From Marinoscillum sp. (GTDB lineage: Bacteria > Bacteroidota > Bacteroidia > Cytophagales > MED-G16): 36,822 nucleotides of DNA. The translations under genes and the position numbers were made by a program. The notes under the pieces were generated by a model, which worked only from the letters and a program-made list of their open reading frames with translations, was not told the DNA's origin and made no database searches. Location: positions 45,544 through 82,365 of the forward strand of contig JBELBJ010000003.1 of assembly GCA_042095375.1 (NCBI GenBank). The letters run 5' to 3'. This document shows positions 13,493 through 32,371 of the stretch, piece after piece. Each line of letters starts with the position of its first letter. The first letter of the stretch is position 1.

Positions 13493-14065
13493 ATGGATAA
13501 AAAGAATTTTTATTTCGTAACCCTAGTAATAGTTATAATTGATCAACTGGTTAAACTTGTTGTTCATTTCAATATGCCTCTTGGCTCAGAAATAAATGTA
13601 ATCGGAGACTTTTTCAAATTGCATCATATTGAGAATCCTGGTTTAGCTTTTGGTATTGATATAAATTTTAAATACGGTAAATTATTACTTACCTCATTTA
13701 GACTTGCAGCATCTTTTTTTATTGGTTATTATTTGTATACTCTCGTATCTAAAAAAGCTAACAACCTATTAATTTTAGCTATATCTATGATTCTTGCTGG
13801 TGCTATTGGAAATGTTATTGATAGTTTACTTTACGGAGTTTTACTTAATAATGCTCCTTTAAACTCACCTTTTTCTTTATTTTATGGCCAAGTTATAGAT
13901 ATGTTTTATGTTGATATCTGGGAGGGCTTTGTGCCTTCATATGTTCCCCTAATAGGCGGTTCATATCTTTCATTATGGCCAGTTTTTAACATAGCTGATT
14001 CATCAATATTTATTGGAGTCTTGATAATTATTTTATTTCAAAAAAAATTTGTTGACTATTTATAA
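13493..14065 (+). CDS. lspA: Lipoprotein signal peptidase II
   Basis: IIDQLVK, ENPGLAFG, GAIGNVID, VIDM...VFNIADS catalytic aspartates. Confidence 0.95.
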   Translation: MDKKNFYFVTLVIVIIDQLVKLVVHFNMPLGSEINVIGDFFKLHHIENPGLAFGIDINFKYGKLLLTSFRLAASFFIGYYLYTLVSKKANNLLILAISMILAGAIGNVIDSLLYGVLLNNAPLNSPFSLFYGQVIDMFYVDIWEGFVPSYVPLIGGSYLSLWPVFNIADSSIFIGVLIIILFQKKFVDYL

Positions 14066-14068
14066 ACA

Positions 14069-14371
14069 TTATATGAATACAACATTTTGAATTTCTTCAT
14101 AATGTTTCTGAAATTTTTTTAGAGTAATTTTTTTTGAGTTTTCCAATTCACTCTTTAGAGGTGATGAATTTATTTTAATATAAATAATCATATTTTTACA
14201 ATATACTCCAGTTGTTCTATCTTGAATAAATTTATCCGAAATGGTATTCCATATATTTTCAATTTTTTTATCAAAAAGCTTTAATTCTATTTTATTTTGA
14301 TTCAAAAAATTAGAAGTTAATTTTTGAATGGATTCTATTTTTCGATGTCTTTTATTATTATTTTTCATCAT
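14069..14371 (-). CDS. DUF721/DciA-family protein
   Basis: About 100 aa, W...I..RT...IYIKINSSPLKSEL pattern, overlapping the recF stop (usual pairing). Confidence 0.75.
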   Translation of the reverse strand: MMKNNNKRHRKIESIQKLTSNFLNQNKIELKLFDKKIENIWNTISDKFIQDRTTGVYCKNMIIYIKINSSPLKSELENSKKITLKKFQKHYEEIQNVVFI

Positions 14372-15464
14372 AATTTATCTTCCCATTTTTTATTTTTATT
14401 AAATTAATATTGTAATCTTTTGAATTAAAAATTTCTAATCTATCATTTAATGCATCAGTTATAAAGATTTGTCCTCTTATTTTTTTTCTAATAAATTTCA
14501 TAAGATCTTTGATCCTTTTATTATCTAATTTATCAAAAATATCATCAAGCATCATAAGAGGATTAACTGATAATTTCTTAGAAATAATATGATATTCACT
14601 CATTTTAAGGGTAATTATAAAAGATTTTTGCTGACCTTGAGACGCAAAATTTTTTATTGGTTTATTATTAATATAAAATAAATAATCATCCTTATGTATA
14701 CCGAAGTTGGTCTTTTCAGTTAATATATCATATTCAAGGTATTTTTTATAAATATCATTTTCAATAGATTTTTCAACCTTACTTTTATAGAATATCTCTA
14801 TTTCATGTTTTTCTTTTGTTATAGAACTATATATTTCAAAAAATTTTTTTTTAAATTCAATCAAATATTCTGACCTTTTATTTCTTATATAGACATTTAA
14901 TTTAATTAGTAAATTATCATAATGTTCAATTTCATTTTTATCAACATATTTTTTTTTCTTAAATTTTTGTAAAACTAGATTTCTTGATTTTATAATTTTA
15001 TTATATTTTATAATGCCCTGCAAGTAGTCTTGCTCAATTTGAGAAATAATCAAATCAAAAAACCTTCTTCTATAATAACTGGAATTTCTAATTAGATCAC
15101 TGTCGTTTGGAGCTATAATTATGGCAGGTATTTTCCCTAAATGAAGACTAATTTTTTCATAAGGTGAATCATTAAATAAAATGATTTTTTTTTCATTTTT
15201 TTTATATTTGCAATCTACTGATATTGATTTTTTATCAATTTTATAATTACCACTTATTGAAAAAAAATTATCATCATTTTTAATATTATTTTCGTCAATT
15301 TTATTAAAAGCACTTTTAGTGAATGATAGATAATAAATTGCATCTAATAAATTGGTTTTACCAGAGCCATTTTCACCAGTAATAAAATTAATTTTATCTG
15401 AAAAATTAATATTTTCTGATTTATAATTTTTAAAATTTTTTAACTCAATTTTTTCCAGGTACAT
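14358..15464 (-). CDS. recF: DNA replication/repair protein RecF
   Basis: LKNFKNY, Walker A GENGSGKTN, RRRFFD, GIHKDD, SQGQQKS, LMMLDDIFDKLD. Confidence 0.95.
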   Translation of the reverse strand: MYLEKIELKNFKNYKSENINFSDKINFITGENGSGKTNLLDAIYYLSFTKSAFNKIDENNIKNDDNFFSISGNYKIDKKSISVDCKYKKNEKKIILFNDSPYEKISLHLGKIPAIIIAPNDSDLIRNSSYYRRRFFDLIISQIEQDYLQGIIKYNKIIKSRNLVLQKFKKKKYVDKNEIEHYDNLLIKLNVYIRNKRSEYLIEFKKKFFEIYSSITKEKHEIEIFYKSKVEKSIENDIYKKYLEYDILTEKTNFGIHKDDYLFYINNKPIKNFASQGQQKSFIITLKMSEYHIISKKLSVNPLMMLDDIFDKLDNKRIKDLMKFIRKKIRGQIFITDALNDRLEIFNSKDYNINLIKIKNGKINYDEK

Positions 15465-20433: not shown

Positions 20434-20447
20434 AATTTTTGAATATA

Positions 20448-21710
20448 ATGAAGCTAAAGTTTTTACTATTTATATCTTTATTTTTTACTTTAAAATTATT
20501 TTCTCAAACTACTTCACCCTTTACTTCTGTAACAGGCATTGGAGAGTTAAATGATTTGGGCTACTCCAATAATGTAGCTATGGGTGGTGTTGGGATTAGT
20601 AATGGATCTGTTTGGCATTTAAACAATCAAAATCCAGCAGCTTTAACTTCAAATATTTTTACCACTTTTGAAATGGGACTTTCCTCAGATCTAAGACAAG
20701 TATCGAATAATAAAATAACTGATTTAAATGGAAGTGCTAATTTAAACTATATTGGTTTTGGTGTACCAATTATAAAAAATGGAAAATGGGTTTCATCTTT
20801 TGGCTTTAATCCATTTAGTTCTGTCAATTATGTTTTATATAACGAAGAGGTTTTAGAGAATACTTCTGCTGTTGCAAGATATAGATATGAGGGTGAAGGT
20901 GGTCTGACTCAAGCATATTGGTCTAATGGGTTTAAAATTTCTAAAGATTTATCTCTTGGGCTTAAAGGGTCATATATTTTTGGAAATGTTAAAAATGAAA
21001 CAAGTGTTATTTTAACTAATGAAGAAAAATTTTATACCACCCATTATGAAAGCTCTTCATACAATGATTATAATTTGACATCAGGATTATTCTATAAAAA
21101 AGAATTAGTAGAAGATAAGTTTTTAAAAATAGGTTTCATTTATGATTTAAAATCTTCATTAAATGCAGATCGTTTTTCTAGATTGGAAAGAAGGTTAGTT
21201 AACACAACTAATATTGTGCCAATAGACACTCTAATTAATCATGAAATTCAAAAGTTTTCTATACCAAAAAGTTATGGTATTGGTTTCTCTTATGAAAAAC
21301 TAGACAAATTTTCTGTTGGTATTGAAGTAAAGCTACAGTCTTGGAATAATAGAAGTGGTTTTCAAGATAATTATGATAATGTAGTTTATAAAAACTTTTT
21401 GAAAATTTCTTCAGGAATTGAATTTATTCCAGATGCGCAAAATGTAGATAAATATTTAAAAAGATCTACTTATAGATTTGGTATTTTTTTTAAAAAGTCT
21501 CCATATTTGATAAATAACAATCAAATTAATAATTTAGGATTGAATCTAGGGTTATCTCTTCCAGTTGGTTCTTTGTCAAGAATTAATGTTGCTATGGAAA
21601 TGGGTATTAGGGGGAGTGTAGATAAAACTTTTGTTAAAGAACGCTATTTTAAGTTTGTTTTAGGAAGTTCAATTAACAATATTTGGTTCATTAAAAGAAA
21701 ATTTGATTAA
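20448..21710 (+). CDS. FadL-like outer-membrane beta-barrel (probable BamG-family protein)
   Basis: Signal peptide, N-terminal T.SP....GIGEL...AMGG.G......N..NPA (FadL-like plug), amphipathic beta-strands and C-terminal WFIKRKFD; lies upstream of TPR-lptC. The BamG assignment rests on recalled synteny and is unverified. ATG 20448 preferred over TTG 20439. Confidence 0.7.
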   Translation: MKLKFLLFISLFFTLKLFSQTTSPFTSVTGIGELNDLGYSNNVAMGGVGISNGSVWHLNNQNPAALTSNIFTTFEMGLSSDLRQVSNNKITDLNGSANLNYIGFGVPIIKNGKWVSSFGFNPFSSVNYVLYNEEVLENTSAVARYRYEGEGGLTQAYWSNGFKISKDLSLGLKGSYIFGNVKNETSVILTNEEKFYTTHYESSSYNDYNLTSGLFYKKELVEDKFLKIGFIYDLKSSLNADRFSRLERRLVNTTNIVPIDTLINHEIQKFSIPKSYGIGFSYEKLDKFSVGIEVKLQSWNNRSGFQDNYDNVVYKNFLKISSGIEFIPDAQNVDKYLKRSTYRFGIFFKKSPYLINNNQINNLGLNLGLSLPVGSLSRINVAMEMGIRGSVDKTFVKERYFKFVLGSSINNIWFIKRKFD

Positions 21711-21736: not shown

Positions 21737-23146
21737 ATGAGATTAATTACCTTCTTATTTGTGAATTTCTTTTTTGTATCATTAGTTTCTGCTCAACCTG
21801 GGTGGAATTGGCCTGATAATAAAAGTTCAGCAGAAGAAAAAAATGTTTTATATACTGATTATTTAAAAGAGGGGAATTGTGAAGCAGCTCTCGAACCACA
21901 TAATTGGCTTCTTGATAGTGTGCCAAATCTTCACGTTTCACTTTATCAAAACGGCATTAAAATCTATCAATGCCTTATTAAAAATGAAAAAGATAAAGAT
22001 AAACGAAATCAGTTAATTGAAAAAGCACTTGAGATGTTTGATTTAAGGATAAAATACTTCAAAAGAGAAGCTTATGTTATTAATAGAAAAGCATTTTATG
22101 CTTATCAATATTATAAATCAAACAAGGATAAATTTTCTTACTTATATGAGCTATTTAATAGAGCTTATGAACTTAATGATGATAAAATTTCTAATAATAA
22201 TATAGTTTCATTCATGGACTTAATGAGAAGGTATAAAGCATCTTTTCCAGATAATATTAGTGATGATGAAATTTTAGAAAAATACACCCTGATAACAGAT
22301 GTTCTTGGTAAAAAAATTGCTACTGAAAACATGAATATTAGTATTCATAATGATGATGAGAAGCCTAAATATGAAAAAAACCTTGAACGTCTAAAAAAAT
22401 ATCAGAGTTTAGTAGACGAGTTGTTAACAAATACCGTAACTGTTGATTGTGATTTTATTTTTAATAAATTAGGTCCAAAATTAACAAACTTAACATCAAA
22501 TTTTGATGGTGAAATCATGCAAACAAATTATGATGATGTTGCTCCTGTTTCAGATAATCCAGCAATTTTAAATCTTGCAAAAGAAATTTTTATGTTATCT
22601 AGAAAAAATAAATGTGGTTTCACAGGCATTGTATTAACTGCTTCAAAAATTATTTTTGAAAATACTCCAGACGTTGGAATTGCTAAGATTATAGCTTCTA
22701 ATGTTCAAGATAATCTTTCAGAAGCCTTAGATTATTACGATAGGGCAATTGAAGTATCTAGTGACAAAAATCAAAAGGCAGAATTGCATTTACTGAAGGC
22801 TACATTATATAGAAAAAATAATCAAAAAGTTAATGCAAAGCAAAGTGCTTTGGAAGCTTTGATAGAAAATAATTCTTATAGGGAAGCATATAAATTTATA
22901 GGTGATTTGTATATGGCAAGTTATGAGGATTGTAAAAAAGGTCAAAGTAGAGTAAAAGATAGATTGGTTTTTATAGCTGCTCATAAAATGTATATGAGGG
23001 GTGGACATTCTTCACAAGCACAATCAGCTAAAGGGCAATTTCCTTCTGCTGAAGAAATTTTCACTGAAAACTATGAAGTCAAGCAACAACTAAAAGTAGA
23101 TTGCTGGATTAATGAAACTGTAACTTTAGAAAAAAGAACAAATTAA
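21737..23146 (+). CDS. Exported TPR-like helical protein
   Basis: Sec signal peptide (VSA-Q), all-helical TPR-like repeats, six Cys, C-terminal FPS.EEIF...CWINETV motif. Confidence 0.8.
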   Translation: MRLITFLFVNFFFVSLVSAQPGWNWPDNKSSAEEKNVLYTDYLKEGNCEAALEPHNWLLDSVPNLHVSLYQNGIKIYQCLIKNEKDKDKRNQLIEKALEMFDLRIKYFKREAYVINRKAFYAYQYYKSNKDKFSYLYELFNRAYELNDDKISNNNIVSFMDLMRRYKASFPDNISDDEILEKYTLITDVLGKKIATENMNISIHNDDEKPKYEKNLERLKKYQSLVDELLTNTVTVDCDFIFNKLGPKLTNLTSNFDGEIMQTNYDDVAPVSDNPAILNLAKEIFMLSRKNKCGFTGIVLTASKIIFENTPDVGIAKIIASNVQDNLSEALDYYDRAIEVSSDKNQKAELHLLKATLYRKNNQKVNAKQSALEALIENNSYREAYKFIGDLYMASYEDCKKGQSRVKDRLVFIAAHKMYMRGGHSSQAQSAKGQFPSAEEIFTENYEVKQQLKVDCWINETVTLEKRTN

Positions 23147-23151
23147 ATTTT

Positions 23152-25065
23152 ATGAAATTAAATGCCAAAACAATACAAGACTTAATTGATAGTATTCCAA
23201 TTGTAAAATTACTATCTAAAAATGTTGGTGCTGCAGGCGCTATAGGTTTTATTATCCAAGACTTTGTTCTCCCTTTGTACGGAGATTTCATTGTTCCAAT
23301 TGTTTTGTCTTTGGCTGGTGCAGGATTGATAGCATTTGCTTTATGGTATTTTATATTTAAAATTGATACTTCTGATAATTTTAATCATGTATCTTTTCAA
23401 GCTTCAATTGTATGTGTATTATTATCAATGGTTATTTTTGGTTTTAGTTTTTTATCAAAAGCTCTATCAGGGGAAGATGGTAGAGGACTTTTAGGATCTC
23501 AGGTAGGTTTCGTAGCAGATTTACAAGATAATGCTAATGTATATAAAGAAGATGCAGCGGCCTTAGCTAAAATTGCTGAAAACTATTCTGATATGCAAAT
23601 GCAATTAGCTACTCTTAATAATCAAATAGCGAACCAAATGTCACAAAATGGACAGTTAGATGATGATTTAAAGTCTCAAATAAGTGAAATTATGTCTACA
23701 TCGGTTCCAGGAAATAATGATTCTTCACGAGTTACACAATTGGAGAAAGAACTTGATATTGCTTATGAGTTATTAAGACAGATGAGTATGAATAATCAAG
23801 TCCTTCAATCAGATGAAAAAGATAATTTTAAAGATAGAGTTCAAAATGCAAAAAATGATAGTATTTTTTCTATAATCGGATCTTTAAATACTCAAATAGA
23901 GAGTTTAGAAGAGGTGTCTTCAAGTATGTTAACTGATATTAAATCCTTAGATAAATCAGCTGAGCTTGCGGAATTAAAAAAATTAACACTTGAAATAATT
24001 GAAAAAGAAGATCAATTAACTAAAACAATTCAAGAATCGGAGAAGAGAGCTAATAAAACAATGAGAAAAGAACTTGATGAAATTTCATCCTCTATCAAAA
24101 AAAGGAATAATAAAGGAGACAAGGAAAGTGGAAAATATTTAGATGAAATTGTAAATTCATATGAAAAGGTCTTATCCAAAGTTGAAAATAGAAAATCAAG
24201 AAAAGATGAAAGAAATACAGAAAAACAATTAGCTGATACTCAGAAAGAGATAGATGAACTTAAGGGTAAATTAGTTGATTATGAGTCATCACAAAGTGAA
24301 GATGAATCTAATGAAGAGTTGAGTTCGTTAAAAACTTTAATTTCTCAATTGGAATCATATAATGATGTTCAAACTTCAAATGTTCAAACCCTTCAACAAG
24401 ATACACAATCACAGATAGGTGAACTTACTAGCTCCATGTCTCAAATTTTAAATGATATCACTGATTTGAAGGCAATAATAGTTAACAGTGGAAATAATAT
24501 TCAAAGTGCGCCACCAAATGATGAAGTAGAAATTACTAGTACATTCGTTGGAAATAATACTTTAATGTCAGAAGAATCACAAAGACTATTAGCTGGTATG
24601 TCAAATAATGAAACCGATAATCAATTAACAAATGATAATGTTGTTGCTAAGGCATTTAATGATGAGATTAAGGTTTTAGATAATCAACAATCAGATTTAT
24701 ATTATAAAAAAGCACAGATGTTAATTATTAGTAATAATTTTGAAGAATCACTAGATAATGCATTTAAAGTGATTGAACTATCTCCGGAAAGATTAGAGGC
24801 CTACACTTTAATTGGAAATATATATATGACGGCAATCAATAGATGTTCAGATATAGGCGAAGATCAGTTTTCAAAAAAATTAGTTGCTATTGCTGCATAT
24901 AAGATGTATGAAAAAAGTCAAAACAATCAAAAAATGAATGAAGCAATGATGTTTTTTCCTACAACTGATGAAATTAAAAGTAGCGGATATTCAAAGACTA
25001 AATCAGTTGATTTAAATGTCTGTTGGGTTAATGAAGAAATCACTTTATTATCAAAAGGAGATTAA
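23152..25065 (+). CDS. Hypothetical membrane-anchored coiled-coil protein with a C-terminal domain paralogous to the upstream TPR protein
   Basis: 637-aa open frame in AT-rich DNA, 5 nt after the previous stop. About 3 hydrophobic helices in aa 25-101, heptad-rich aa ~125-445, and a C-terminal ~125 aa that aligns with the end of 21737-23146. Confidence 0.85.
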   Translation: MKLNAKTIQDLIDSIPIVKLLSKNVGAAGAIGFIIQDFVLPLYGDFIVPIVLSLAGAGLIAFALWYFIFKIDTSDNFNHVSFQASIVCVLLSMVIFGFSFLSKALSGEDGRGLLGSQVGFVADLQDNANVYKEDAAALAKIAENYSDMQMQLATLNNQIANQMSQNGQLDDDLKSQISEIMSTSVPGNNDSSRVTQLEKELDIAYELLRQMSMNNQVLQSDEKDNFKDRVQNAKNDSIFSIIGSLNTQIESLEEVSSSMLTDIKSLDKSAELAELKKLTLEIIEKEDQLTKTIQESEKRANKTMRKELDEISSSIKKRNNKGDKESGKYLDEIVNSYEKVLSKVENRKSRKDERNTEKQLADTQKEIDELKGKLVDYESSQSEDESNEELSSLKTLISQLESYNDVQTSNVQTLQQDTQSQIGELTSSMSQILNDITDLKAIIVNSGNNIQSAPPNDEVEITSTFVGNNTLMSEESQRLLAGMSNNETDNQLTNDNVVAKAFNDEIKVLDNQQSDLYYKKAQMLIISNNFEESLDNAFKVIELSPERLEAYTLIGNIYMTAINRCSDIGEDQFSKKLVAIAAYKMYEKSQNNQKMNEAMMFFPTTDEIKSSGYSKTKSVDLNVCWVNEEITLLSKGD

Positions 25066-25081
25066 TGTTCTTTAATCATAG

Positions 25082-25612
25082 ATGAGAAGACTTTTATATT
25101 TTTCAATATCATATTTATTTTTATTAAGCTGCTCTTTAGATACAAAAACTCAATCTATTCCTGAAGATTATTCTGGGCCGGTTATTGAAATGTATAATAG
25201 TACGACATCATATAGTGATAATTCAAGATTACGATTAAAATTAAACTCGAAAGAATATTTTGTATATAAAAATGAAAATGAAGAATATCCACAAGGTCTA
25301 TTTATGGAAATTTATTCAACTGAGGAAAAAAAAATCATTGCGACATTTGTTGCCAATCATGTTATAAAATTTTACAAAGACAATTATTACAAGGCTACTG
25401 GAAATGTTATCCTAATTAATCTTGAAACTAAAGATGTATTAAATACTGAAGAATTATTATGGTATCCTGAAAAAGAAAAATTTGTTACTGATAAATTTTT
25501 GACTATTAAAACAGATGATGAATTGCACAAAGGTGAAGGAATGGAATCTAATCAAGATTTTTCATCATATAGAATTATTAAACCAATGGGAAGTATACAA
25601 TTTGAAGAGTAG
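25082..25612 (+). CDS. lptC: LPS export periplasmic protein LptC
   Basis: Bacteroidota LptC pattern YSD......L......EYPQGL...A....GNV......L.TEEL.W......TDK...I.......G.G.ESNQDF; lipobox-like LLSC. Confidence 0.85.
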   Translation: MRRLLYFSISYLFLLSCSLDTKTQSIPEDYSGPVIEMYNSTTSYSDNSRLRLKLNSKEYFVYKNENEEYPQGLFMEIYSTEEKKIIATFVANHVIKFYKDNYYKATGNVILINLETKDVLNTEELLWYPEKEKFVTDKFLTIKTDDELHKGEGMESNQDFSSYRIIKPMGSIQFEE

Positions 25613-25660: not shown

Positions 25661-26923
25661 TTGTTAGATATATACTATAAAATACTTATTTCATTACTTT
25701 TTTCTGGTTTTTTTTCTGGAATAGAGATCGCTTTTGTTTCAAGGAATAAGTTAAATTTTGAACTTAAAGCAAAAAAGGGTGGTGTTATTGGAAGTATCTT
25801 TTCAATATTTAAGGAAAACACCTCTCATTTTATTGCCACAATGCTATTGGGTAATAATTTAGCTTTAGTTTTATATGGCATTTTTATGGCTGAATTGCTA
25901 GAGCCTGTTATTTTTGATCTTCTACCTGAAATAATTAAAAATGACTTTTTTGTTCTTTTATTTTTAACAATAAGTTCTACTTTCATTGTATTGATAACTG
26001 CAGAGTTCATTCCAAAAAGTTTATTTCTTGTTAGTCCAAATTTAATGTTATCATACTTTTCTATTCCTCTTTTTATAATATATCTTTTTTTGTACCCTTT
26101 TGTATGGGTTATACTTTCAATTTCTAAATTTTTTATTTTAAATGTCATGAATTTAGAATATTCTGAAGAAAAACCTGTATTTAGTTTAACCGATCTAAAT
26201 GACTATGTTAAAAGAACAGTTTCAAAAGGTTCTAATAATTCAAAAAAAGAAGTAAATACTGATTATTTTAATAACGCTTTGGAGTTTAAGGCTGTTAAAG
26301 TAAGAGATTGTATGATTCCAAGAACGGAGTTAGTTTGTCTGGATGTTTCAGAACCTATAGATAAGTTAAATAAACTTTTTGTAGATACAGGTTTATCTAA
26401 AATTATTATTTATGATAAATCAATAAACAATGCAATTGGTTATTGTCACGGATTATCCTTATATAGTAATCCTAAAAAAATTAATGATATAATTAAACCG
26501 ATAATTCATGTTACTGAAGCTACACTTGCAAGTGAATTACTAATTCAATTTATTTCAAATCATATGTCAATTGCAATAATTGTTGATGAATATGGTGAAA
26601 CTTCTGGAATTATAACTCTTGAAGATATTATTGAAGAAATATTTGGAGAAATAATTGATGAATATGATGATTATAATTTGTTGGAGCAAATAAAAAGTAA
26701 TGGAGTATATAATTTAAGTGCTCGACATGAGGTTGACTATTTAAATGAAAAATATAGTCTTTCAATACCTGATGGTGATTATGATACTCTTGGAGGTTAT
26801 ATACTATATCTTAATAAAAATTTACCTAAAAAATTTGAAGAAATTAATTCTAAAACCCATCAAATAAAAATTTTAACAATGTATGGTAATAAAATAGGAA
26901 ATGTTAGAATTTTAAAAAAGTGA
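25661..26923 (+). CDS. HlyC/CorC-family (CNNM + CBS pair + CorC domain) membrane protein
   Basis: FFSGIEIAFVS, TMLLGNN, AEFIPK, VRDCMIPR, IVDEYG...GIITLEDIIEEIFGEI.DEYD, YDTLGG; TTG start. Confidence 0.92.
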   Translation: MLDIYYKILISLLFSGFFSGIEIAFVSRNKLNFELKAKKGGVIGSIFSIFKENTSHFIATMLLGNNLALVLYGIFMAELLEPVIFDLLPEIIKNDFFVLLFLTISSTFIVLITAEFIPKSLFLVSPNLMLSYFSIPLFIIYLFLYPFVWVILSISKFFILNVMNLEYSEEKPVFSLTDLNDYVKRTVSKGSNNSKKEVNTDYFNNALEFKAVKVRDCMIPRTELVCLDVSEPIDKLNKLFVDTGLSKIIIYDKSINNAIGYCHGLSLYSNPKKINDIIKPIIHVTEATLASELLIQFISNHMSIAIIVDEYGETSGIITLEDIIEEIFGEIIDEYDDYNLLEQIKSNGVYNLSARHEVDYLNEKYSLSIPDGDYDTLGGYILYLNKNLPKKFEEINSKTHQIKILTMYGNKIGNVRILKK

Positions 26924-26991: not shown

Positions 26992-29088
26992 ATGTCAATA
27001 ATAGGTACATTAAGAAATAAGATGGGAAAATTTCTAGTCTTTGTTATTGGATTCTCAATAGCATCTTTTGTATTAGGTGATATCCTGGGCCCTAACTCAA
27101 CTTTATTTGGGGGGAACGATACAACTATTGGTACTATAAAGGGTGAAGATATAGATTTCACATCATTTCAATCTTTATATGAAGAGTTTTCATATAATTT
27201 TTCTTTGAATAGTGGAACTTCGCCTTCCCCTAATGATGTGCTTCTTTTAAGGGAACAAGTTTGGGAAAAATTTATTCAAGATATTGCATTTCAAAATGAA
27301 TATGATAAATTAGGTGTTACTGTTACGAGTTCTGAGCTTGTAGAAATGGTGCAGGGAAATAATATCCACCCAGTTGTTAGACAAGCTTTTACAAGTCCTG
27401 AGACAGGAATTTTTGATTCAGAGCAGGTTGTTTTTTTTCTAAAGAATTTATCTAACCAAAGCGTTGAACAACAACAATTTTGGTCAAATTTTGAAAGAAA
27501 CTTAATCCCTTTAAGACTAAGGGATAAATATGAAAACCTTATTTCTAAAACTAATTATGTTAATAAATTAGAATCAAAACGTGAATATATAAACTCTAAT
27601 CAATCTTCTTCAATATCTTATTTATATGTCCCTTTTTATTCTATTAGTGATTCTTTAGTTTCTGTTTCTGATAATGAATTAAAATCATTTCTTTTTAATA
27701 ATAAAGATGATTATAAACAAGAAGAATCTCGTTCTTTAAAATATATATCTTTTGATGTAAGTCCTTCTATTGAAGATACTCTTTATGTTAAGGAAGAAAT
27801 GAATAATTTAAAATCACTTATTAATCAATCTTCTAGTGATTCTATTTTTTCTTCAATTAATTCAGACGATTTGGATTATTATATATCATTAAGAGAGGAT
27901 GAAATAAAGAATTTGTTTGGTTCAAACCCTAATGTTGGAGATATTATAGATCCTCAAATTTTAAATAATCAGTATGTTTTATATAAATTATCTGAAATCA
28001 TTAAGGAAGAAAAATTTAGTGCAAGAGCAAAGCATATATTATTAAAGTGGGATGATCAAAGTTTAAATTCTAAATCAGAAGTTAGAAATGAAGCCAATAG
28101 AGTTTTAAATTTGATAAGAAGTGGAAGTGACTTTGATGAAATGGCTAGAATGTATAGTCAAGATGGCTCAGCTAGTAATGGTGGTGATCTTGGATGGTTT
28201 ACTGAAGGTCAAATGGTAGATCCTTTTGAAAGAGCAGTTTTTTCTAAAAGATCTTCAGGCTTAATTAATAGAGTTATTGAAACTGATTTTGGTTTTCACA
28301 TAATTAATGTAAGTTCTACAAAATCTGATAAGATTTTTAAAGTTTCTAAAATTGTTAAAGATATAATTCCTAGCGATGTAACTAGAAATAATTCATATAG
28401 ACAAGCAGAAATTTTTAGATCTGAAAATAATAGCATGAATGATTTCCTATCTGCTGCTGATAATCTTGGTTTAAAAATCTCTACTAACAGAATAAATAAG
28501 AATGATCAAACTGTTGGATCTTTACAAAACTCAAGATCTTTAATTATGTGGGCTTATGGAGTAGATGATTTAGGTGAAATATCTAATGTAATAGAATTGG
28601 ATAACACATATGTGATAGGTATTTTATCTGAAATTAAAGAAGAAGGAACTTCTGAATTAGAAGATGTAGAGTTTTCGATTAGAAGAAAAATTATTAATAA
28701 TAAAAAATTTGATTTTGTAAATGATAAATTATCTGGAATAGAAGGTTCCCTAGATGAAATTGCTGTTTCTTATGGTGCTAATGCTAATGTTTTTACTATG
28801 GACAATTTACTTCTTAGTACTAGTTCTTTAAATAATGTTGGGTATTCTCCAAATGCTATAGGAGTTGCTTTTTCTATGGATGAAGCTGAAAGAACTAAAC
28901 CTTTTGCTACTGATGATGGTGTTTTAATTTTACAATTAAACTCAAAAGATACTTTTTCTGAACAAGAAGATTATTTTGGTTTTTCTAGTTCATTGCTGGA
29001 GGCACTTAACCTAGCCTCCCCTTTAAAAATAGATAAAGCAATTAAAGGATTTTCTGACATAAGCGATTATAGATACAAATTCTTTTAA
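26992..29088 (+). CDS. ppiD: PpiD-like membrane-anchored periplasmic chaperone (SurA N-domain + parvulin)
   Basis: N-terminal TM anchor; parvulin AKHILL...FDEMA..YSQD.SA.NGGDLGWF..GQMV.PFE...ETDFGFHII. Confidence 0.85.
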   Translation: MSIIGTLRNKMGKFLVFVIGFSIASFVLGDILGPNSTLFGGNDTTIGTIKGEDIDFTSFQSLYEEFSYNFSLNSGTSPSPNDVLLLREQVWEKFIQDIAFQNEYDKLGVTVTSSELVEMVQGNNIHPVVRQAFTSPETGIFDSEQVVFFLKNLSNQSVEQQQFWSNFERNLIPLRLRDKYENLISKTNYVNKLESKREYINSNQSSSISYLYVPFYSISDSLVSVSDNELKSFLFNNKDDYKQEESRSLKYISFDVSPSIEDTLYVKEEMNNLKSLINQSSSDSIFSSINSDDLDYYISLREDEIKNLFGSNPNVGDIIDPQILNNQYVLYKLSEIIKEEKFSARAKHILLKWDDQSLNSKSEVRNEANRVLNLIRSGSDFDEMARMYSQDGSASNGGDLGWFTEGQMVDPFERAVFSKRSSGLINRVIETDFGFHIINVSSTKSDKIFKVSKIVKDIIPSDVTRNNSYRQAEIFRSENNSMNDFLSAADNLGLKISTNRINKNDQTVGSLQNSRSLIMWAYGVDDLGEISNVIELDNTYVIGILSEIKEEGTSELEDVEFSIRRKIINNKKFDFVNDKLSGIEGSLDEIAVSYGANANVFTMDNLLLSTSSLNNVGYSPNAIGVAFSMDEAERTKPFATDDGVLILQLNSKDTFSEQEDYFGFSSSLLEALNLASPLKIDKAIKGFSDISDYRYKFF

Positions 29089-30263: not shown

Positions 30264-31432
30264 TGTACAGAATTATTCTTTTTATTTTCTTTTTTTCTTT
30301 TTCATTTAGTTTATTTTCATTTCAACTATCTAAAAATTCTCAAATTTCTGTAATTACTATTGGGCCATCTCAAAAAGAATTGTATAGTGCATTTGGTCAT
30401 AGTGGAATTAGAGTTAAAGATGATAGTTTAGGTATAGATTATTTTTATAATTATGGTGTTTTTGATTTTGATCAGCCTAATTTTTACATCAATTTTTTGA
30501 AGGGAAAGTTACTTTATATGGTAGTTAGGTATAATTATAAAACTATAGAAGATCATTATATTTTTAATAATAGAGTTATTAAAGAACAAGTACTTAATTT
30601 AAATTCAACCAAGAAATTAAAAACATTTAATTTCCTTGAAAAAAACATATTAAGTCAAAATAAATATTATTACTATAACTATATATATAATAATTGTGCA
30701 ACTAAGATAAGAGATTTATTTGATGAAATTTTTCCTAAATATGTTGAATATGATTCTATAAATAATGATAATTTATCTTACAGAGAATTAATGGATCTTT
30801 ATTTATATGAACAAAGATGGGGAGATTTAGGTATTGATATTTGTTTGGGTTCCGAAATAGATAAAATAGCAGATAATTATAATTCTATGTACTTACCAGA
30901 TTATTTATTTTCAAATTTAGATAATGCTAAGACTAGCGAAAATCAAAATTTTATATTGAAAGAAAATGAAATCTTTTCACCTAGCAAAACCAAGAATAGT
31001 TCAATTTTCTTAACTCCAAGTCTTGTTTTATTTACTCTTTTATTAATAACAGTTTTTCTTATTTTTAGAGAAAGAAAATATGATTTATGGTATAAAAAAT
31101 TTGATTTTATTCTATTCTTTATTTCTGGAGCTATAGGTTTTCTTTTAGTTTATCTATGGTTTTTTACTGACCATCTTTCGTCATATAATTTTAACCTTAT
31201 TTGGGCTTTTCCATTAAATATAGTTGTGGCTTTCTTTTTATTTAATGAAAAAATTTTAGATAAAATAAAAATTTATTTTTTAATTGTTTCTCTTCTTTTA
31301 CTTTCTTTAATTTTATTGTGGGCTTTGTTACCTCAAAAATTAAGTATCTCACTTTTGTTTTTGGTTTTAGCAATTTTATTACGTTCAATTTCAATTTATT
31401 TAAGGTTGCATAATAGATCAATTTCGAATTGA
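30263..31432 (+). CDS. DUF4105 membrane protein, probable Lnb-type lipoprotein N-acyltransferase
   Basis: FGHSGIRV, YNYG.FDF, Y.Y....NNCATKIRD (Cys/His papain-like pair) and about 5 C-terminal TMs. Confidence 0.75.
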   Translation: MYRIILFIFFFSFSFSLFSFQLSKNSQISVITIGPSQKELYSAFGHSGIRVKDDSLGIDYFYNYGVFDFDQPNFYINFLKGKLLYMVVRYNYKTIEDHYIFNNRVIKEQVLNLNSTKKLKTFNFLEKNILSQNKYYYYNYIYNNCATKIRDLFDEIFPKYVEYDSINNDNLSYRELMDLYLYEQRWGDLGIDICLGSEIDKIADNYNSMYLPDYLFSNLDNAKTSENQNFILKENEIFSPSKTKNSSIFLTPSLVLFTLLLITVFLIFRERKYDLWYKKFDFILFFISGAIGFLLVYLWFFTDHLSSYNFNLIWAFPLNIVVAFFLFNEKILDKIKIYFLIVSLLLLSLILLWALLPQKLSISLLFLVLAILLRSISIYLRLHNRSISN

Positions 31433-31434
31433 TA

Positions 31435-31896
31435 TCATATGTATTTATTTATACTATCGAAAATTAAGTTTTTTTCATATCCTTTTTGATATAGATAATT
31501 AAATAGCTTTTGTTTTTTAAGTCTAACTTCTTCTTCTTTAATACTTTTTTTTTTATTTATTAATAAGTTTTTTAAAGTCTCCAAATAAATTTCATTATCA
31601 ATTGATTCCAATCCTTGATTAATTTCATTTTCACCTATTCCTTTATTAATTAGATATGATTTTATTTTACTTTTACCCCATTTATTAATGTTAAACTTTC
31701 CTCTCGAAAATGATTTTGAAAACCTCAAATCATTAATTATATTATTTTTTTTTAGTTTATCAATTATTTTCTTAGAAGTATTAGAGTCATATCCTAATGA
31801 AAAGAGTTTGATTAATACCTCTTTGGAGGATCTTTCTCTGTAATTGCAGAAAATTATAATTTTTTCAAATGCCTCTTTTTCCGAAAGATTTTTCAA
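31435..31896 (-). CDS. recX: Regulatory protein RecX
   Basis: FCNYRERS..EV..KL, IND.RF...F.RGKF...KWG..KI...L..KGI, YL.QKGYE. Confidence 0.9.
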   Translation of the reverse strand: MKNLSEKEAFEKIIIFCNYRERSSKEVLIKLFSLGYDSNTSKKIIDKLKKNNIINDLRFSKSFSRGKFNINKWGKSKIKSYLINKGIGENEINQGLESIDNEIYLETLKNLLINKKKSIKEEEVRLKKQKLFNYLYQKGYEKNLIFDSINKYI

Positions 31897-31897
31897 A

Positions 31898-32371
31898 TTA
31901 TTTAATATATCCTTTTCTTCTTAACACACTTTCAACAAATCTTATTTCATTATCAGAGTTAAAAACTTTAAAAGGAAGAAAAATTATTTGAACTTTATTT
32001 ATCTTAAATAAAAAGCCATCTTTTTTTTTATAAGCTTTTTTTATGTTCTCCCATTTCATTGGCATTCCTTGATTTGAACTGACTTTTATAAGTATTTGTT
32101 GACTAGAAATCTCATAAGATAACCTTTCAAACATATATCTGCCTTGTTCAACTTGAGTCATTCCAGCAAATTGAATTAGCCAAAATAGAAAATATAAAAA
32201 TAATGCTATTGATGAGCCGATTATCCACCATATGTTTGGAATTAAGAAATAACCAGAACATAATGCTATATAAATTAAAAACACCCACCACTGATCATTC
32301 AATAAATTCAATAAACCCTTTTTTATATATATGCTTTGTTTAAGTTGATATTTTCTGGTTTTAACTATCAT
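31898..32371 (-). CDS. YcxB-like membrane protein
   Basis: Two N-terminal TMs followed by a PH-like soluble domain (W..I.KA......F.........LP..VF). Confidence 0.65.
   Translation of the reverse strand: MIVKTRKYQLKQSIYIKKGLLNLLNDQWWVFLIYIALCSGYFLIPNIWWIIGSSIALFLYFLFWLIQFAGMTQVEQGRYMFERLSYEISSQQILIKVSSNQGMPMKWENIKKAYKKKDGFLFKINKVQIIFLPFKVFNSDNEIRFVESVLRRKGYIK

What the first reader, a model, noticed from the sequence alone, without database searches (positions are those of the whole stretch)
23152..25065. Chimeric gene in the envelope operon: membrane anchor + long coiled coil + diverged copy of the neighbouring TPR protein's C-terminal domain
Seen: the last ~125 aa (24685-25065) align almost without gaps to the last ~124 aa of the upstream exported TPR protein (22772-23146). 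Examples are EAYKFIGDLYM..C vs EAYTLIGNIYM..C, LVFIAAHKMY vs LVAIAAYKMY, FPSAEEI vs FPTTDEI and CWINETVTL vs CWVNEEITL. My hand alignment gives about 35 identities over ~120 positions, with both Cys kept. The rest is unrelated: about 3 hydrophobic helices (aa 25-43, 46-68, 80-101), ~320 aa of E/K/Q/L/S heptad-rich sequence and a low-complexity linker. Knowledge: in Bacteroidota this locus normally runs barrel-TPR-lptC-hlyC-ppiD with nothing in this position. Inference: an old partial duplication plus fusion made an inner-membrane-tethered version of the domain. Three TMs and a conserved Cys pair would put it in the periplasm, on a stalk long enough to reach the outer membrane. It is a candidate undescribed trans-envelope tether or adaptor for OMP or LPS biogenesis.
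Basis: partly seen in the sequence, partly recalled or inferred. Interest (0 to 1): 0.8.

Follow-up and report, generated by a model that had tools for sequence, protein, structure and literature searches.

The report
Membrane-anchored coiled coil with borrowed TPR cap
A real, well-conserved gene in the bamG–lptC outer-membrane-biogenesis operon of a small group of marine Cytophagales encodes a membrane anchor, a long coiled coil and, in one genus only, a much-diverged copy of the end domain of the neighbouring periplasmic TPR protein; its function is unknown but it probably tethers that domain to the inner membrane.

Summary
Residues 511-632 of the 637-aa ORF (23152-25065) align to residues 345-464 of the upstream exported TPR protein: 36 of 122 identical, E 5e-14 by BLASTP and E 5.7e-23 by profile comparison. 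Both Cys are kept. The upstream "barrel" is BamG, an essential BAM subunit described in 2025.

The gene is not an assembly chimera. At least 120 protein clusters of 621-639 aa from many marine assemblies share the architecture.

The anchor-plus-coiled-coil gene is restricted to one family: 23 loci among 185,579 species genomes, always between the TPR gene and lptC. Only one genus (4 genomes) carries the linker and C-domain; sister genera have a 430-457-aa form that ends after the coiled coil. Gain or loss of the C-domain is unresolved.

The fused domain is under strong purifying selection (dN/dS 0.02-0.09). It keeps 9 of 14 family-invariant residues.

Charge distribution in the short forms, and the exported origin of the domain, favour a periplasmic C-terminus. 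This is not proven.

Function is inferred only. The protein is most likely an inner-membrane-tethered presenter or adaptor of the TPR cap, possibly docking the soluble TPR protein (weak complex prediction, 0.41 against 0.00). It is a lineage-specific variant of moderate interest.

The parts
20439..21710 (+). bamG (14-stranded FadL-like outer-membrane subunit of the Bacteroidota BAM complex); first gene of the gene string
   Evidence: NCBIfam NF053685 BamG equivalog, 360.3 bits against a cut-off of 250, E 1.3e-107. The family is described in PMC12611786 and PMC12578637 (passages read).
21737..23146 (+). Exported TPR-like solenoid protein (469 aa), the parent of the copied domain; a phylum-wide family without a name
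   Evidence: Signal-peptide-like N-terminus, then an invariant Q20 and W25; four invariant Cys (C238, C293, C399, C456) in 27 sequences. AF2 model pLDDT 88.4, all-helical with a terminal beta-hairpin. Only generic TPR matches in the PDB. Sources call it 'hypothetical' or 'TPR repeat'.
22769..23134 (+). C-terminal cap domain of the TPR protein (aa 345-466), the source of the copy
   Evidence: Aligned range. It holds 14 columns invariant in 24 family members.
23152..25065 (+). The finding: 637-aa gene for membrane anchor, coiled coil, linker and TPR-cap copy
   Evidence: ORF. Orthologues at 82-96% identity in 3 further genomes of the genus. At least 120 clusters of 621-639 aa. dN/dS 0.065-0.109 over the whole gene.
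23221..23454 (+). Membrane domain, aa 24-101: three hydrophobic segments (24-43, 47-69, 80-101) with invariant polar residues Q36, D37, P41, W65, H79, S81, Q83
   Evidence: Alignment A1 of 14 sequences; hydropathy and charge counts. It is the best conserved part between genera (41-46% identity to the non-g1 sequences over the first 140 aa, against about 33% over the whole protein).
23455..23556 (+). Conserved juxtamembrane segment, aa 102-135 (S102, K103, A104, R111, G112, V118, F120, A122, L124-Q125-D126, N129, Y131, E133 invariant)
   Evidence: dN/dS 0.022-0.049.
23539..24495 (+). Segmented coiled-coil or helical region, aa 130-448; one conserved D-S-I/L motif at aa 236-238
   Evidence: Heptad periodicity z 5.7, 0 of 200 shuffles. 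Helices 133-448 in about 9 segments in a low-confidence AF2 model. The motif sits at the same column in 17 of 17 orthologues.
24496..24681 (+). Genus-specific linker, aa 449-510; no homologue in the TPR protein or in the short forms
   Evidence: Alignment; hhalign boundary; dN/dS 0.17-0.23 for 441-505; pLDDT 24-47.
24682..25053 (+). Diverged copy of the TPR cap domain, aa 511-634, with C565 and C624
   Evidence: dN/dS 0.020-0.093. pLDDT mostly 70-92. TPR fold by VIA-align: 1na3_B Z 11.0, rmsd 1.2, 78 aligned.
25082..25612 (+). lptC
   Evidence: TIGR04409 38.5 bits (cut-off 38) and Pfam LptC 29.2 bits (cut-off 21).
25661..26923 (+). CNNM/CBS/CorC_HlyC membrane protein (GldE/CorC-like)
   Evidence: Pfam CNNM, CBS and CorC_HlyC above their cut-offs. 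GldE subfamily 145 bits, below its cut-off of 376.
26992..29088 (+). PpiD-like periplasmic chaperone or peptidyl-prolyl isomerase
   Evidence: Pfam SurA_N_2, Rotamase_3 and Rotamase above their cut-offs.

Best explanation
Shown: the gene is real and under selection. It is a lineage-restricted envelope-operon gene that sits between the bamG-adjacent periplasmic TPR gene and lptC. It encodes a conserved polytopic membrane domain, a segmented coiled coil of about 320 residues and, in one genus only, a variable linker and a highly diverged duplicate of the C-terminal Cys-pair TPR cap of the neighbouring protein.

Inferred: the membrane domain has three helices with the N-terminus inside, so the coiled coil and the cap lie in the periplasm. 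The protein then works as an inner-membrane-tethered stalk that presents the TPR cap in the periplasm. The cap either binds the same partner as the soluble TPR protein or docks onto that protein and holds it near the inner membrane. This would couple an inner-membrane site to the BamG, LptC and PpiD envelope-biogenesis machinery encoded around it.

In the sister genera the same stalk ends in a nearly invariant C-terminal helix, which may do the same job without a covalent link.
For: Gene reality and architecture:
- Searches show the same architecture in 4 species-level genomes and in at least 120 protein clusters.
- Contigs from RNA libraries of 3 studies cover the linker/C-domain junction: X3 24440-24695, X5 24563-24713, X1 24651-25075. 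This shows presence in RNA libraries, not transcription.

Homology of the cap: E 5e-14, E 5.7e-23, and 9 of 14 invariant columns kept, both Cys among them.

Selection: dN/dS is 0.020-0.093 in the cap. The parent's own cap gives 0.048-0.182 and LptC 0.10-0.26.

Origin: the fused caps and the family's own TPR caps lie on one side of a branch (support 79/85). A clade with the genus's own TPR is not rejected (p-AU 0.39).

Operon context:
- Gaps between the genes are 5 to 68 nt.
- In the 11 non-g1 loci whose TPR gene could be checked, the gene's start overlaps or abuts that gene's stop codon. In 11 of all 13 non-g1 loci, its end overlaps or abuts the start of lptC.

Periplasmic side:
- The loop between helices 2 and 3 carries +2 to +4 and 0 to -1 charges in 13 of 13 short forms. 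The N-terminus carries +3 to +4.
- The parent is an exported protein with invariant Cys pairs.
- BamG, the TPR protein, LptC and PpiD are extracytoplasmic by what is established for these families; this was not tested here.

Docking on the TPR protein: complex prediction of the fused cap against the mature TPR protein gave WEAK support. The score was 0.41 (runs 0.38, 0.41, 0.44) and the best of 3 controls 0.00. The runs agree in at least 91% of their contacts, and the partner's pLDDT is at least 83. The mark was reached by 58 of 80 solved complexes and 2 of 110 mismatched pairs. A pass at a score of 0.60 or less was seen in only 7 of those 80 solved complexes and in both mismatched pairs that passed, so such a pass is more often wrong than right.
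Against: - No topology predictor was available.
- In this genus the loop between helices 2 and 3 is +1/-2. The first hydrophobic segment is only weakly hydrophobic and holds an invariant Q-D pair. A two-helix topology with a cytoplasmic C-terminus therefore fits the charges of the g1 proteins about as well.
- The full-length model is poor (pLDDT 51.8, pTM 0.31) and does not show a single long stalk.
- Five family-invariant cap residues are changed (S395A, V406F, G423Q/D, Q434F, F442K), so the copy may no longer bind what the parent binds.
- The complex score is weak. It may also be inflated, because the partner is homologous to part of the other chain and both alignments contain rows from the same proteins.
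- The parent TPR protein has no known function, and in the passages found by my term searches neither 2025 BAM paper mentions it. Those searches found no 'TPR', 'tetratricopeptide' or 'LptC' in either text.
- Gene neighbourhood alone does not show a role in OMP or LPS biogenesis.
Confidence: 0.5

Rival explanations
1. Cytoplasmic scaffold. Only two segments (47-69 and 80-101) span the membrane, and the first is an interfacial helix. The coiled coil and the TPR cap then face the cytoplasm, as in EzrA-like or LapB-like proteins (recalled), and the two Cys stay reduced.
For: In the 4 g1 proteins the loop 70-79 is net negative (+1/-2). Segment 24-43 is less hydrophobic and holds an invariant Q36-D37. 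The coiled coil itself is rich in K and R. The O-glycosylation motif is not enriched in the soluble part (1 observed, 1.6-2.5 expected).
Against: In 13 of 13 short-form orthologues the same loop is +2 to +4, which would put a strongly positive loop in the periplasm. Homologues rarely differ in topology. The cap comes from an exported protein, and both Cys of an invariant pair survived a stem of 2.2-3.5 substitutions per site. By family knowledge, every flanking gene product except CorC works outside the cytoplasm.
Confidence: 0.17
2. Ancestral full-length form. The common ancestor of the family already had the cap, and the g2+g3 lineage lost it by a 3' deletion. The 637-aa protein would then be the original state, not a genus-specific innovation.
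For: In the concatenated BamG+TPR+LptC+CorC tree, g1 is sister to (g3, g2) with 100/100 support. One loss is therefore as parsimonious as one gain. The very long stem of the fused cap (2.2-3.5 substitutions per site, against 0.47-0.81 for the g1 TPR cap) fits an old duplication. The fused clade attaches at the base of the family's TPR clade, not inside g1.
Against: A clade of the fused cap with the g1 TPR cap is not rejected (p-AU 0.39). The short forms end in a nearly invariant helix directly overlapping or abutting lptC in 11 of 13 non-g1 loci, with no remnant of a linker or cap. A long stem can also come from fast divergence after a recent duplication.
Confidence: 0.4
3. Energy-coupled transducer of the TolA/TonB kind. 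The invariant polar residues of the membrane domain (D37, H79, S81, Q83) would engage an ExbBD/TolQR-type motor, and the stalk would transmit force or conformational change to an outer-membrane partner bound by the cap.
For: Anchor, long helical spacer and C-terminal binding domain is the TolA plan (recalled). The membrane domain is the most conserved part and holds an invariant Asp inside a hydrophobic segment. The genome encodes ExbB-like (3 matches) and ExbD-like (3 matches) genes.
Against: No Pfam or NCBIfam match to TolA, TonB or related families at E up to 0.1. The protein has three segments, not one. The ExbB and ExbD genes lie on other contigs (C6, C21, C24) and the genome has an ordinary TonB_C protein. 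There is no homologue outside the family in 1.84 billion representatives.
Confidence: 0.08
4. Artefact or decaying passenger: an assembly chimera, or a recently fused domain drifting without function.
For: The linker is poorly conserved. Five invariant residues of the parent family are changed.
Against: The same architecture is found in 4 independent species-level genomes and in at least 120 clusters on contigs up to 306 kb. The cap has the lowest dN/dS of the gene in the two least saturated pairs (0.020, 0.043). The five changes are identical in 4 of 4 genomes.
Confidence: 0.02

Closest known systems
The unnamed Bacteroidota TPR protein encoded next to bamG (here 21737-23146)
   Same: The last 124 residues are homologous (E 5.7e-23). 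Both have a TPR fold with a terminal beta-hairpin and the same Cys pair, and both sit in the same operon.
   Different: The target lacks the signal peptide and the N-terminal solenoid of about 320 residues with its first Cys pair. Identity is only 23-35% to any family member, and 5 of 14 invariant cap residues are changed. The domain sits on a membrane anchor and coiled coil. Of 82 places (my count from the table) where at least 100 of the 135 profile positions matched, in a 201-genome phylum sample, this is the only one in an open frame outside 416-551 aa, apart from one 592-aa frame with an internal stop.
TolA (Tol-Pal system; features recalled, not fetched)
   Same: The plan is the same: inner-membrane anchor, long helical periplasmic spacer, small C-terminal binding domain.
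   Different: There is no sequence match. The target has three hydrophobic segments instead of one, a TPR-like end domain instead of TolA domain III, and is not next to tolQR/exbBD.
YfgM, the inner-membrane-anchored TPR-like partner of PpiD at the Sec translocon (PDB 8zht)
   Same: Both are membrane-anchored periplasmic TPR-like modules. A PpiD-like gene lies in the same gene string. The fused cap superposes on 8zht_B with Z 9.3, rmsd 1.9 over 81 residues.
   Different: That Z is tied with dozens of unrelated TPR proteins. There is no Pfam match. YfgM is short, has one helix and has no coiled coil (recalled).
CpoB/YbgF and BamD (periplasmic TPR proteins of envelope biogenesis; features recalled)
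   Same: TPR modules act in the periplasm in OM constriction or OMP assembly. BamD gives Z 9.1 (5efr_A). CpoB combines a coiled coil with a TPR domain.
   Different: Neither is membrane-spanning. There is no sequence homology, and the structural similarity is generic.

Membership tests
bamG-adjacent Bacteroidota TPR protein family (unnamed) | Significant sequence similarity to the conserved C-terminal cap | tested here: met
   BLASTP E 5e-14; hhalign probability 99.5%, E 5.7e-23.
bamG-adjacent Bacteroidota TPR protein family (unnamed) | Invariant Cys pair of the cap (C399, C456) | tested here: met
   C565 and C624 are present in 4 of 4 fused proteins.
bamG-adjacent Bacteroidota TPR protein family (unnamed) | Full architecture: signal peptide with Q at +1, N-terminal solenoid with C238 and C293, length 416-551 aa | tested here: not met
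   Only residues 511-634 are homologous. The N-terminal 510 residues are unrelated. It is therefore a domain copy, not a family member.
bamG-adjacent Bacteroidota TPR protein family (unnamed) | All cap residues that are invariant in 24 family members | tested here: not met
   9 of 14 are kept; S395A, V406F, G423Q/D, Q434F and F442K are changed.
Tetratricopeptide repeat (Pfam TPR clan) | Profile match above the gathering score | tested here: inconclusive
   TPR_1 gives 13.5 bits against a cut-off of 27.8 (E 0.066). phmmer against designed consensus TPR proteins gives E 5.3e-5 over 505-559.
Tetratricopeptide repeat (Pfam TPR clan) | Helix-turn-helix repeat fold | tested here: met
   Idealised TPR 1na3_B: Z 11.0, rmsd 1.2, 78 aligned over 511-603. 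Many further TPR chains give Z 9-10.6. The model's pLDDT there is mostly 70-92.
TolA / TonB | TolA or TonB C-terminal domain (Pfam) | tested here: not met
   No such family at E up to 0.1 in the Pfam scan, or at E up to 0.01 in the NCBIfam scan, of the whole protein.
TolA / TonB | Gene next to tolQR/exbBD | tested here: not met
   ExbB and ExbD matches lie on contigs C6, C21 and C24; the window is on C3.
YfgM | Sequence-profile match to the YfgM family | tested here: not met
   No match in the Pfam scan at E up to 0.1. The family accession is recalled and was not queried on its own.
YfgM | Fold similarity specific to YfgM | tested here: inconclusive
   8zht_B gives Z 9.3, tied with many unrelated TPR chains.
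BamG (the neighbouring barrel, not the target) | NCBIfam equivalog above its cut-off | tested here: met
   NF053685 gives 360.3 bits against 250.

The most novel reading that the evidence does not exclude
The fusion is a 'Rosetta stone'. It would show that the phylum-wide, uncharacterised TPR protein encoded beside bamG works together with an inner-membrane partner. In these streamlined marine Cytophagales, a lineage-specific stalk with a functional, possibly proton-responsive membrane domain (invariant D37, H79, S81, Q83) would bridge the periplasm and dock, through the TPR cap, on the BAM/Lpt side of the envelope. That would be a new kind of trans-envelope connector for outer-membrane biogenesis.
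Probability: 0.15. Interest if true: 0.75.

Novelty: new variant of a known kind. Interest (0 to 1): 0.42.

Why it matters
The Bacteroidota BAM complex and its essential BamG subunit were described only in 2025. The conserved TPR gene that follows bamG, and usually precedes lptC, across the phylum has no assigned role.

A natural fusion that hangs a selected copy of that protein's most conserved module on a membrane-anchored stalk is a free hint. It suggests the module acts in the periplasm and near an inner-membrane site, and that it may self-associate.

It also shows that genomes of 1.0-1.8 Mb keep a 430-640-aa orphan gene inside a core envelope operon.

The practical value is limited. The lineage is uncultured, the family is confined to about two dozen species-level genomes, and nothing here measures function.

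Tried and rejected
- **PDB by sequence.** No hit for the TPR protein at E up to 1. For the target only designed consensus TPR proteins and coiled-coil noise appeared.
- **Foldseek of the TPR model against the PDB.** Only generic TPR superhelices, TM 0.16-0.29.
- **VIA-align of the full-length model.** Residues 285-420 matched assorted helical bundles at Z 9-12, which is within the range of chance for helical models, and the model is of low confidence there.
- **ESM Atlas on residues 1-450.** The best score was 0.78, below the level of a lead.
- **Profile of the membrane domain against 1.84 billion representatives.** 21 hits. The full-length ones are the same family and most of the rest are short fragments; I read only 4. 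Two of those (P0174, P0158) look like chimeric metagenome ORFs.
- **Pfam V-SNARE hit.** E 0.0023, below its cut-off; taken as coiled-coil noise.
- **Sigma-70 promoter scan.** 69 sites found against 76 expected, so uninformative. None of the 9 terminator-like sites lies between the genes.
- **tRNA scan.** None found.
- **Literature.** No paper holds Fjoh_1413/Fjoh_1411 or BT4366/BT4368. LptC + Bacteroidota + tetratricopeptide found only a 2026 review, seen as a listing and not read. These locus tags were my guesses for the neighbours of bamG.
- **Earlier findings of this scan.** Nothing by place, sequence or words.
- **Alignment A3.** It misplaced the tails of the short forms on the cap and was replaced by A4. 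A4 still has about 14 misplaced residues in each short-form row.
- **Tree.** It contained a mis-framed junk row (PARA_G238). Disregard it; one search is the clean repeat, with 2 rows containing X dropped.
- **O-glycosylation motif count.** Not enriched: 1 observed against 1.6-2.5 expected.
- **RNA-library contigs.** They leave large parts of the gene uncovered. This says nothing either way.
- **dS.** For pairs with G002 it is about 1 or more (saturated; one value undefined). Those ratios are rough.
Full report
**1. The observation**

The window is AT-rich (about 27% G+C). It lies in a 1.55-Mb, 91%-complete genome.

ORF 23152-25065 (+, 637 aa) starts 5 nt after the stop of ORF 21737-23146 (469 aa) and ends 16 nt before the next ORF.

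- BLASTP aligns residues 511-632 with residues 345-464 of the upstream protein: 36 of 122 identical, 2 gaps, E 5e-14. Nothing else is significant.
- A profile comparison raises this to E 5.7e-23 for 511-634 against 345-466. The homology does not extend into the linker.
- Within the whole genome the fused domain finds only itself and this neighbour.

**2. The neighbourhood**

- The barrel at 20439-21710 is BamG (NCBIfam equivalog, 360 bits against a cut-off of 250). BamG is the FadL-like, essential outer-membrane subunit of the Bacteroidota BAM complex described in 2025 (PMC12611786 and PMC12578637; passages read).
- The string continues with the TPR protein, the target, LptC, a CNNM/CBS/CorC protein and a PpiD-like chaperone. 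Gaps between the genes are 5 to 68 nt.
- Outside the target's family, the TPR gene is directly followed by lptC in 11 of 12 loci that I read. L022 is the exception.
- My term searches found no 'TPR', 'tetratricopeptide' or 'LptC' in either BAM paper. I found nothing in print on the TPR protein.

**3. The parent TPR protein**

- It has a signal-peptide-like N-terminus followed by an invariant Gln. This fits the Gln at +1 reported for signal-peptidase-I substrates of Bacteroidota (recalled).
- It has four invariant Cys: C238, C293, C399 and C456 (27 sequences).
- A confident all-helical model ends in a small beta-hairpin (pLDDT 88.4).
- Structure and sequence searches return only generic TPR proteins.
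- A profile of the cap domain found a match in 115 of 201 sampled genomes of the phylum. By my count of that table, 82 places match at least 100 of the 135 profile positions. All of these lie at the C-terminal end of open frames of 416-551 aa, except the window's fused gene and one 592-aa frame with an internal stop.
- Sources call the protein 'hypothetical' or 'TPR repeat'.

**4. The target and its relatives**

*Distribution*

- Among 41 related genomes, the full 635-637-aa architecture occurs in the 4 genomes of the window's genus, g1, at 82-96% identity.
- Of the 21 genomes of the sister genera g2 and g3 that were searched, 20 gave a match to the anchor and coiled coil beside the TPR gene, and G007 gave a match at a contig end. 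All 13 loci that I read encode a 430-457-aa protein matching only those parts.
- In those 13 loci the gene's start overlaps or abuts the TPR stop codon wherever that gene could be checked (11 loci). Its end overlaps or abuts the start of lptC in 11 of 13.
- A pattern scan of one genome for each of 185,579 species found 23 loci, all in this position. Three are of the long form and 20 of the short form; 2 of the short forms are truncated.
- Their record titles call them uncultured Marinoscillum, Flammeovirgaceae or Cytophagales MAGs.
- A protein search found 187 relatives. The best 120 listed are all 621-639 aa at 90-100% identity, on contigs up to 306 kb from several sources. An assembly chimera is excluded.
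- An exhaustive profile search with the membrane domain against 1.84 billion representatives found 21 hits. The full-length ones are the same family and most of the rest are short fragments; of the 4 I read, 2 look like chimeric ORFs. The anchor-plus-coiled-coil gene is therefore a lineage-restricted gene without detectable relatives.

*Anatomy*

- The membrane domain is the best conserved part between genera. Invariant residues include Q36, D37, P41, W65, H79, S81 and Q83, and an invariant juxtamembrane segment follows.
- Residues 130-448 have heptad periodicity far above shuffles, here and in g2 and g3 orthologues (z 4.1-5.7; 0 of 200 shuffles each). The cap does not.
- The full-length AF2 model is poor (pLDDT 51.8). 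It is helical from 118 to 448 in about nine segments, so I cannot say whether the region is one long stalk or folds back.
- The cap is modelled at pLDDT mostly 70-92 and superposes on TPR proteins (1na3_B: Z 11.0, rmsd 1.2, 78 residues). YfgM and BamD lie among many tied hits.

**5. Selection and history**

*dN/dS (Nei-Gojobori, 4 genomes)*

| Region | dN/dS |
|---|---|
| Fused cap | 0.020-0.093 |
| Membrane domain | 0.033-0.061 |
| Coiled coil | 0.075-0.125 |
| Linker | 0.17-0.23 |
| Parent's own cap | 0.048-0.182 |
| LptC | 0.10-0.26 |

Pairs with G002 are saturated in dS. The copy is not decaying.

*Divergence of the copy*

- It keeps 9 of the 14 columns that are invariant in 24 family members. 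It changes five in the same way in all four genomes.
- It is 23-35% identical to any TPR cap. It is slightly closer to g2 caps (30-35%) than to its own neighbour (26-28%).

*Trees*

- The four fused caps form a clade (100/100) on a stem of 2.2-3.5 substitutions per site.
- Together with the family's TPR caps they form one side of a branch (79/85).
- A clade with the g1 TPR cap is not rejected (p-AU 0.39).
- The copy thus most likely came from the family's own TPR gene and then diverged fast or long.
- In a concatenated tree of four locus proteins, g1 is sister to (g3, g2) with full support. Gain in g1 and loss in g2+g3 each need one event, so the direction is open.
- Tandem TPR paralogues exist in another family (G175). 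This makes a route by tandem duplication followed by an internal deletion plausible.

**6. Which side of the membrane**

- In all 13 short forms the loop between the second and third hydrophobic segments carries +2 to +4 charges and the N-terminus +3. By the positive-inside rule this gives three helices, N-terminus inside and C-terminus in the periplasm.
- In the four g1 proteins this loop is +1/-2, so their own charges do not decide.
- The exported origin of the cap, the survival of its Cys pair and the extracytoplasmic neighbours point the same way.
- One D-S-I/L motif sits at the same position in 17 of 17 orthologues. It matches the Bacteroidota O-glycosylation motif, which is used only in non-cytoplasmic proteins (PMC12871550, passages read). 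The motif is not enriched, so this is only a lead.
- I put the periplasmic reading at about 0.7.

**7. Mechanism**

*Shown:* the architecture, its restriction to one lineage, purifying selection and the operon position.

*Inferred:* a membrane-tethered periplasmic stalk that presents a TPR cap.

The single complex prediction I could run (fused cap against the mature TPR protein) gave weak support. The score was 0.41 against 0.00 for the best of three controls. Passes at this level are more often wrong than right, and the partner is homologous to part of the other chain. I take it only as a pointer that the cap may self-associate, which would let the stalk hold the soluble TPR protein.

The nearly invariant C-terminal helix of the short forms may be the equivalent, non-covalent contact.

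Contigs from RNA libraries of three studies cover the linker/cap junction. This is compatible with expression but does not prove it.

**8. Comparison with known systems, and verdict**

The plan resembles TolA (anchor, helical spacer, end domain) and YfgM (anchored TPR partner of PpiD). No defining sequence feature of either is met, and the fold similarity is generic.

The protein is not a member of the parent TPR family either; it holds only that family's last domain.

I class it as a new variant of a known kind, a lineage-specific domain fusion, of moderate interest. Its main value is as a hint to the function of the widespread, unstudied TPR protein next to bamG.

Noticed in passing
window 21737-23146 and loci L017-L035: The exported TPR protein encoded right after bamG, and usually right before lptC, is conserved across the phylum sample. 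It has four invariant Cys and an invariant Gln after the signal peptide. It has no name in any source and, in the passages my term searches found, no mention in the two 2025 BAM papers. It may be the more important unknown at this locus.
   Followed up: partly
window 25661-26923; L006, L007, L036, L037, L044, L045, L047, L050, L051, L057: The CNNM/CorC (GldE-like) gene between lptC and ppiD is present in the window and in G002. It is missing from this position in two other genomes of the same genus and in several sister-genus genomes, where lptC is followed directly by ppiD.
   Followed up: no
L029 5873-8601 (G175): Two tandem paralogues of the TPR protein (452 and 430 aa) lie away from the bamG locus in a large-genome relative. 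A further paralogue in G238 (L031) looks split: a 387-aa ORF plus a separate 138-aa open frame that matched the cap profile.
   Followed up: partly
P0174, P0158 (metagenome proteins): Two database proteins join a piece of the target family to unrelated sequence: a phage-like N-terminus in one, a methyltransferase-like C-terminus in the other. They look like chimeric contigs or gene calls, not new architectures.
   Followed up: no
window 23221-23454: The membrane domain holds an invariant Gln-Asp pair inside its first hydrophobic segment and an invariant His-x-Ser-x-Gln at the start of the third. That is more than a passive anchor would need.
   Followed up: partly
window 14001-15000 and 31001-32000: G+C dips to 0.187 and 0.213, with negative GC and AT skew, against about 0.26-0.30 elsewhere.
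   Followed up: no
window 25082-25612: By my own reading of the translation, the LptC homologue begins with a signal peptide ending in a lipobox-like L-S-C. It may therefore be lipid-anchored rather than anchored by a helix. No tool was run on this.
   Followed up: no
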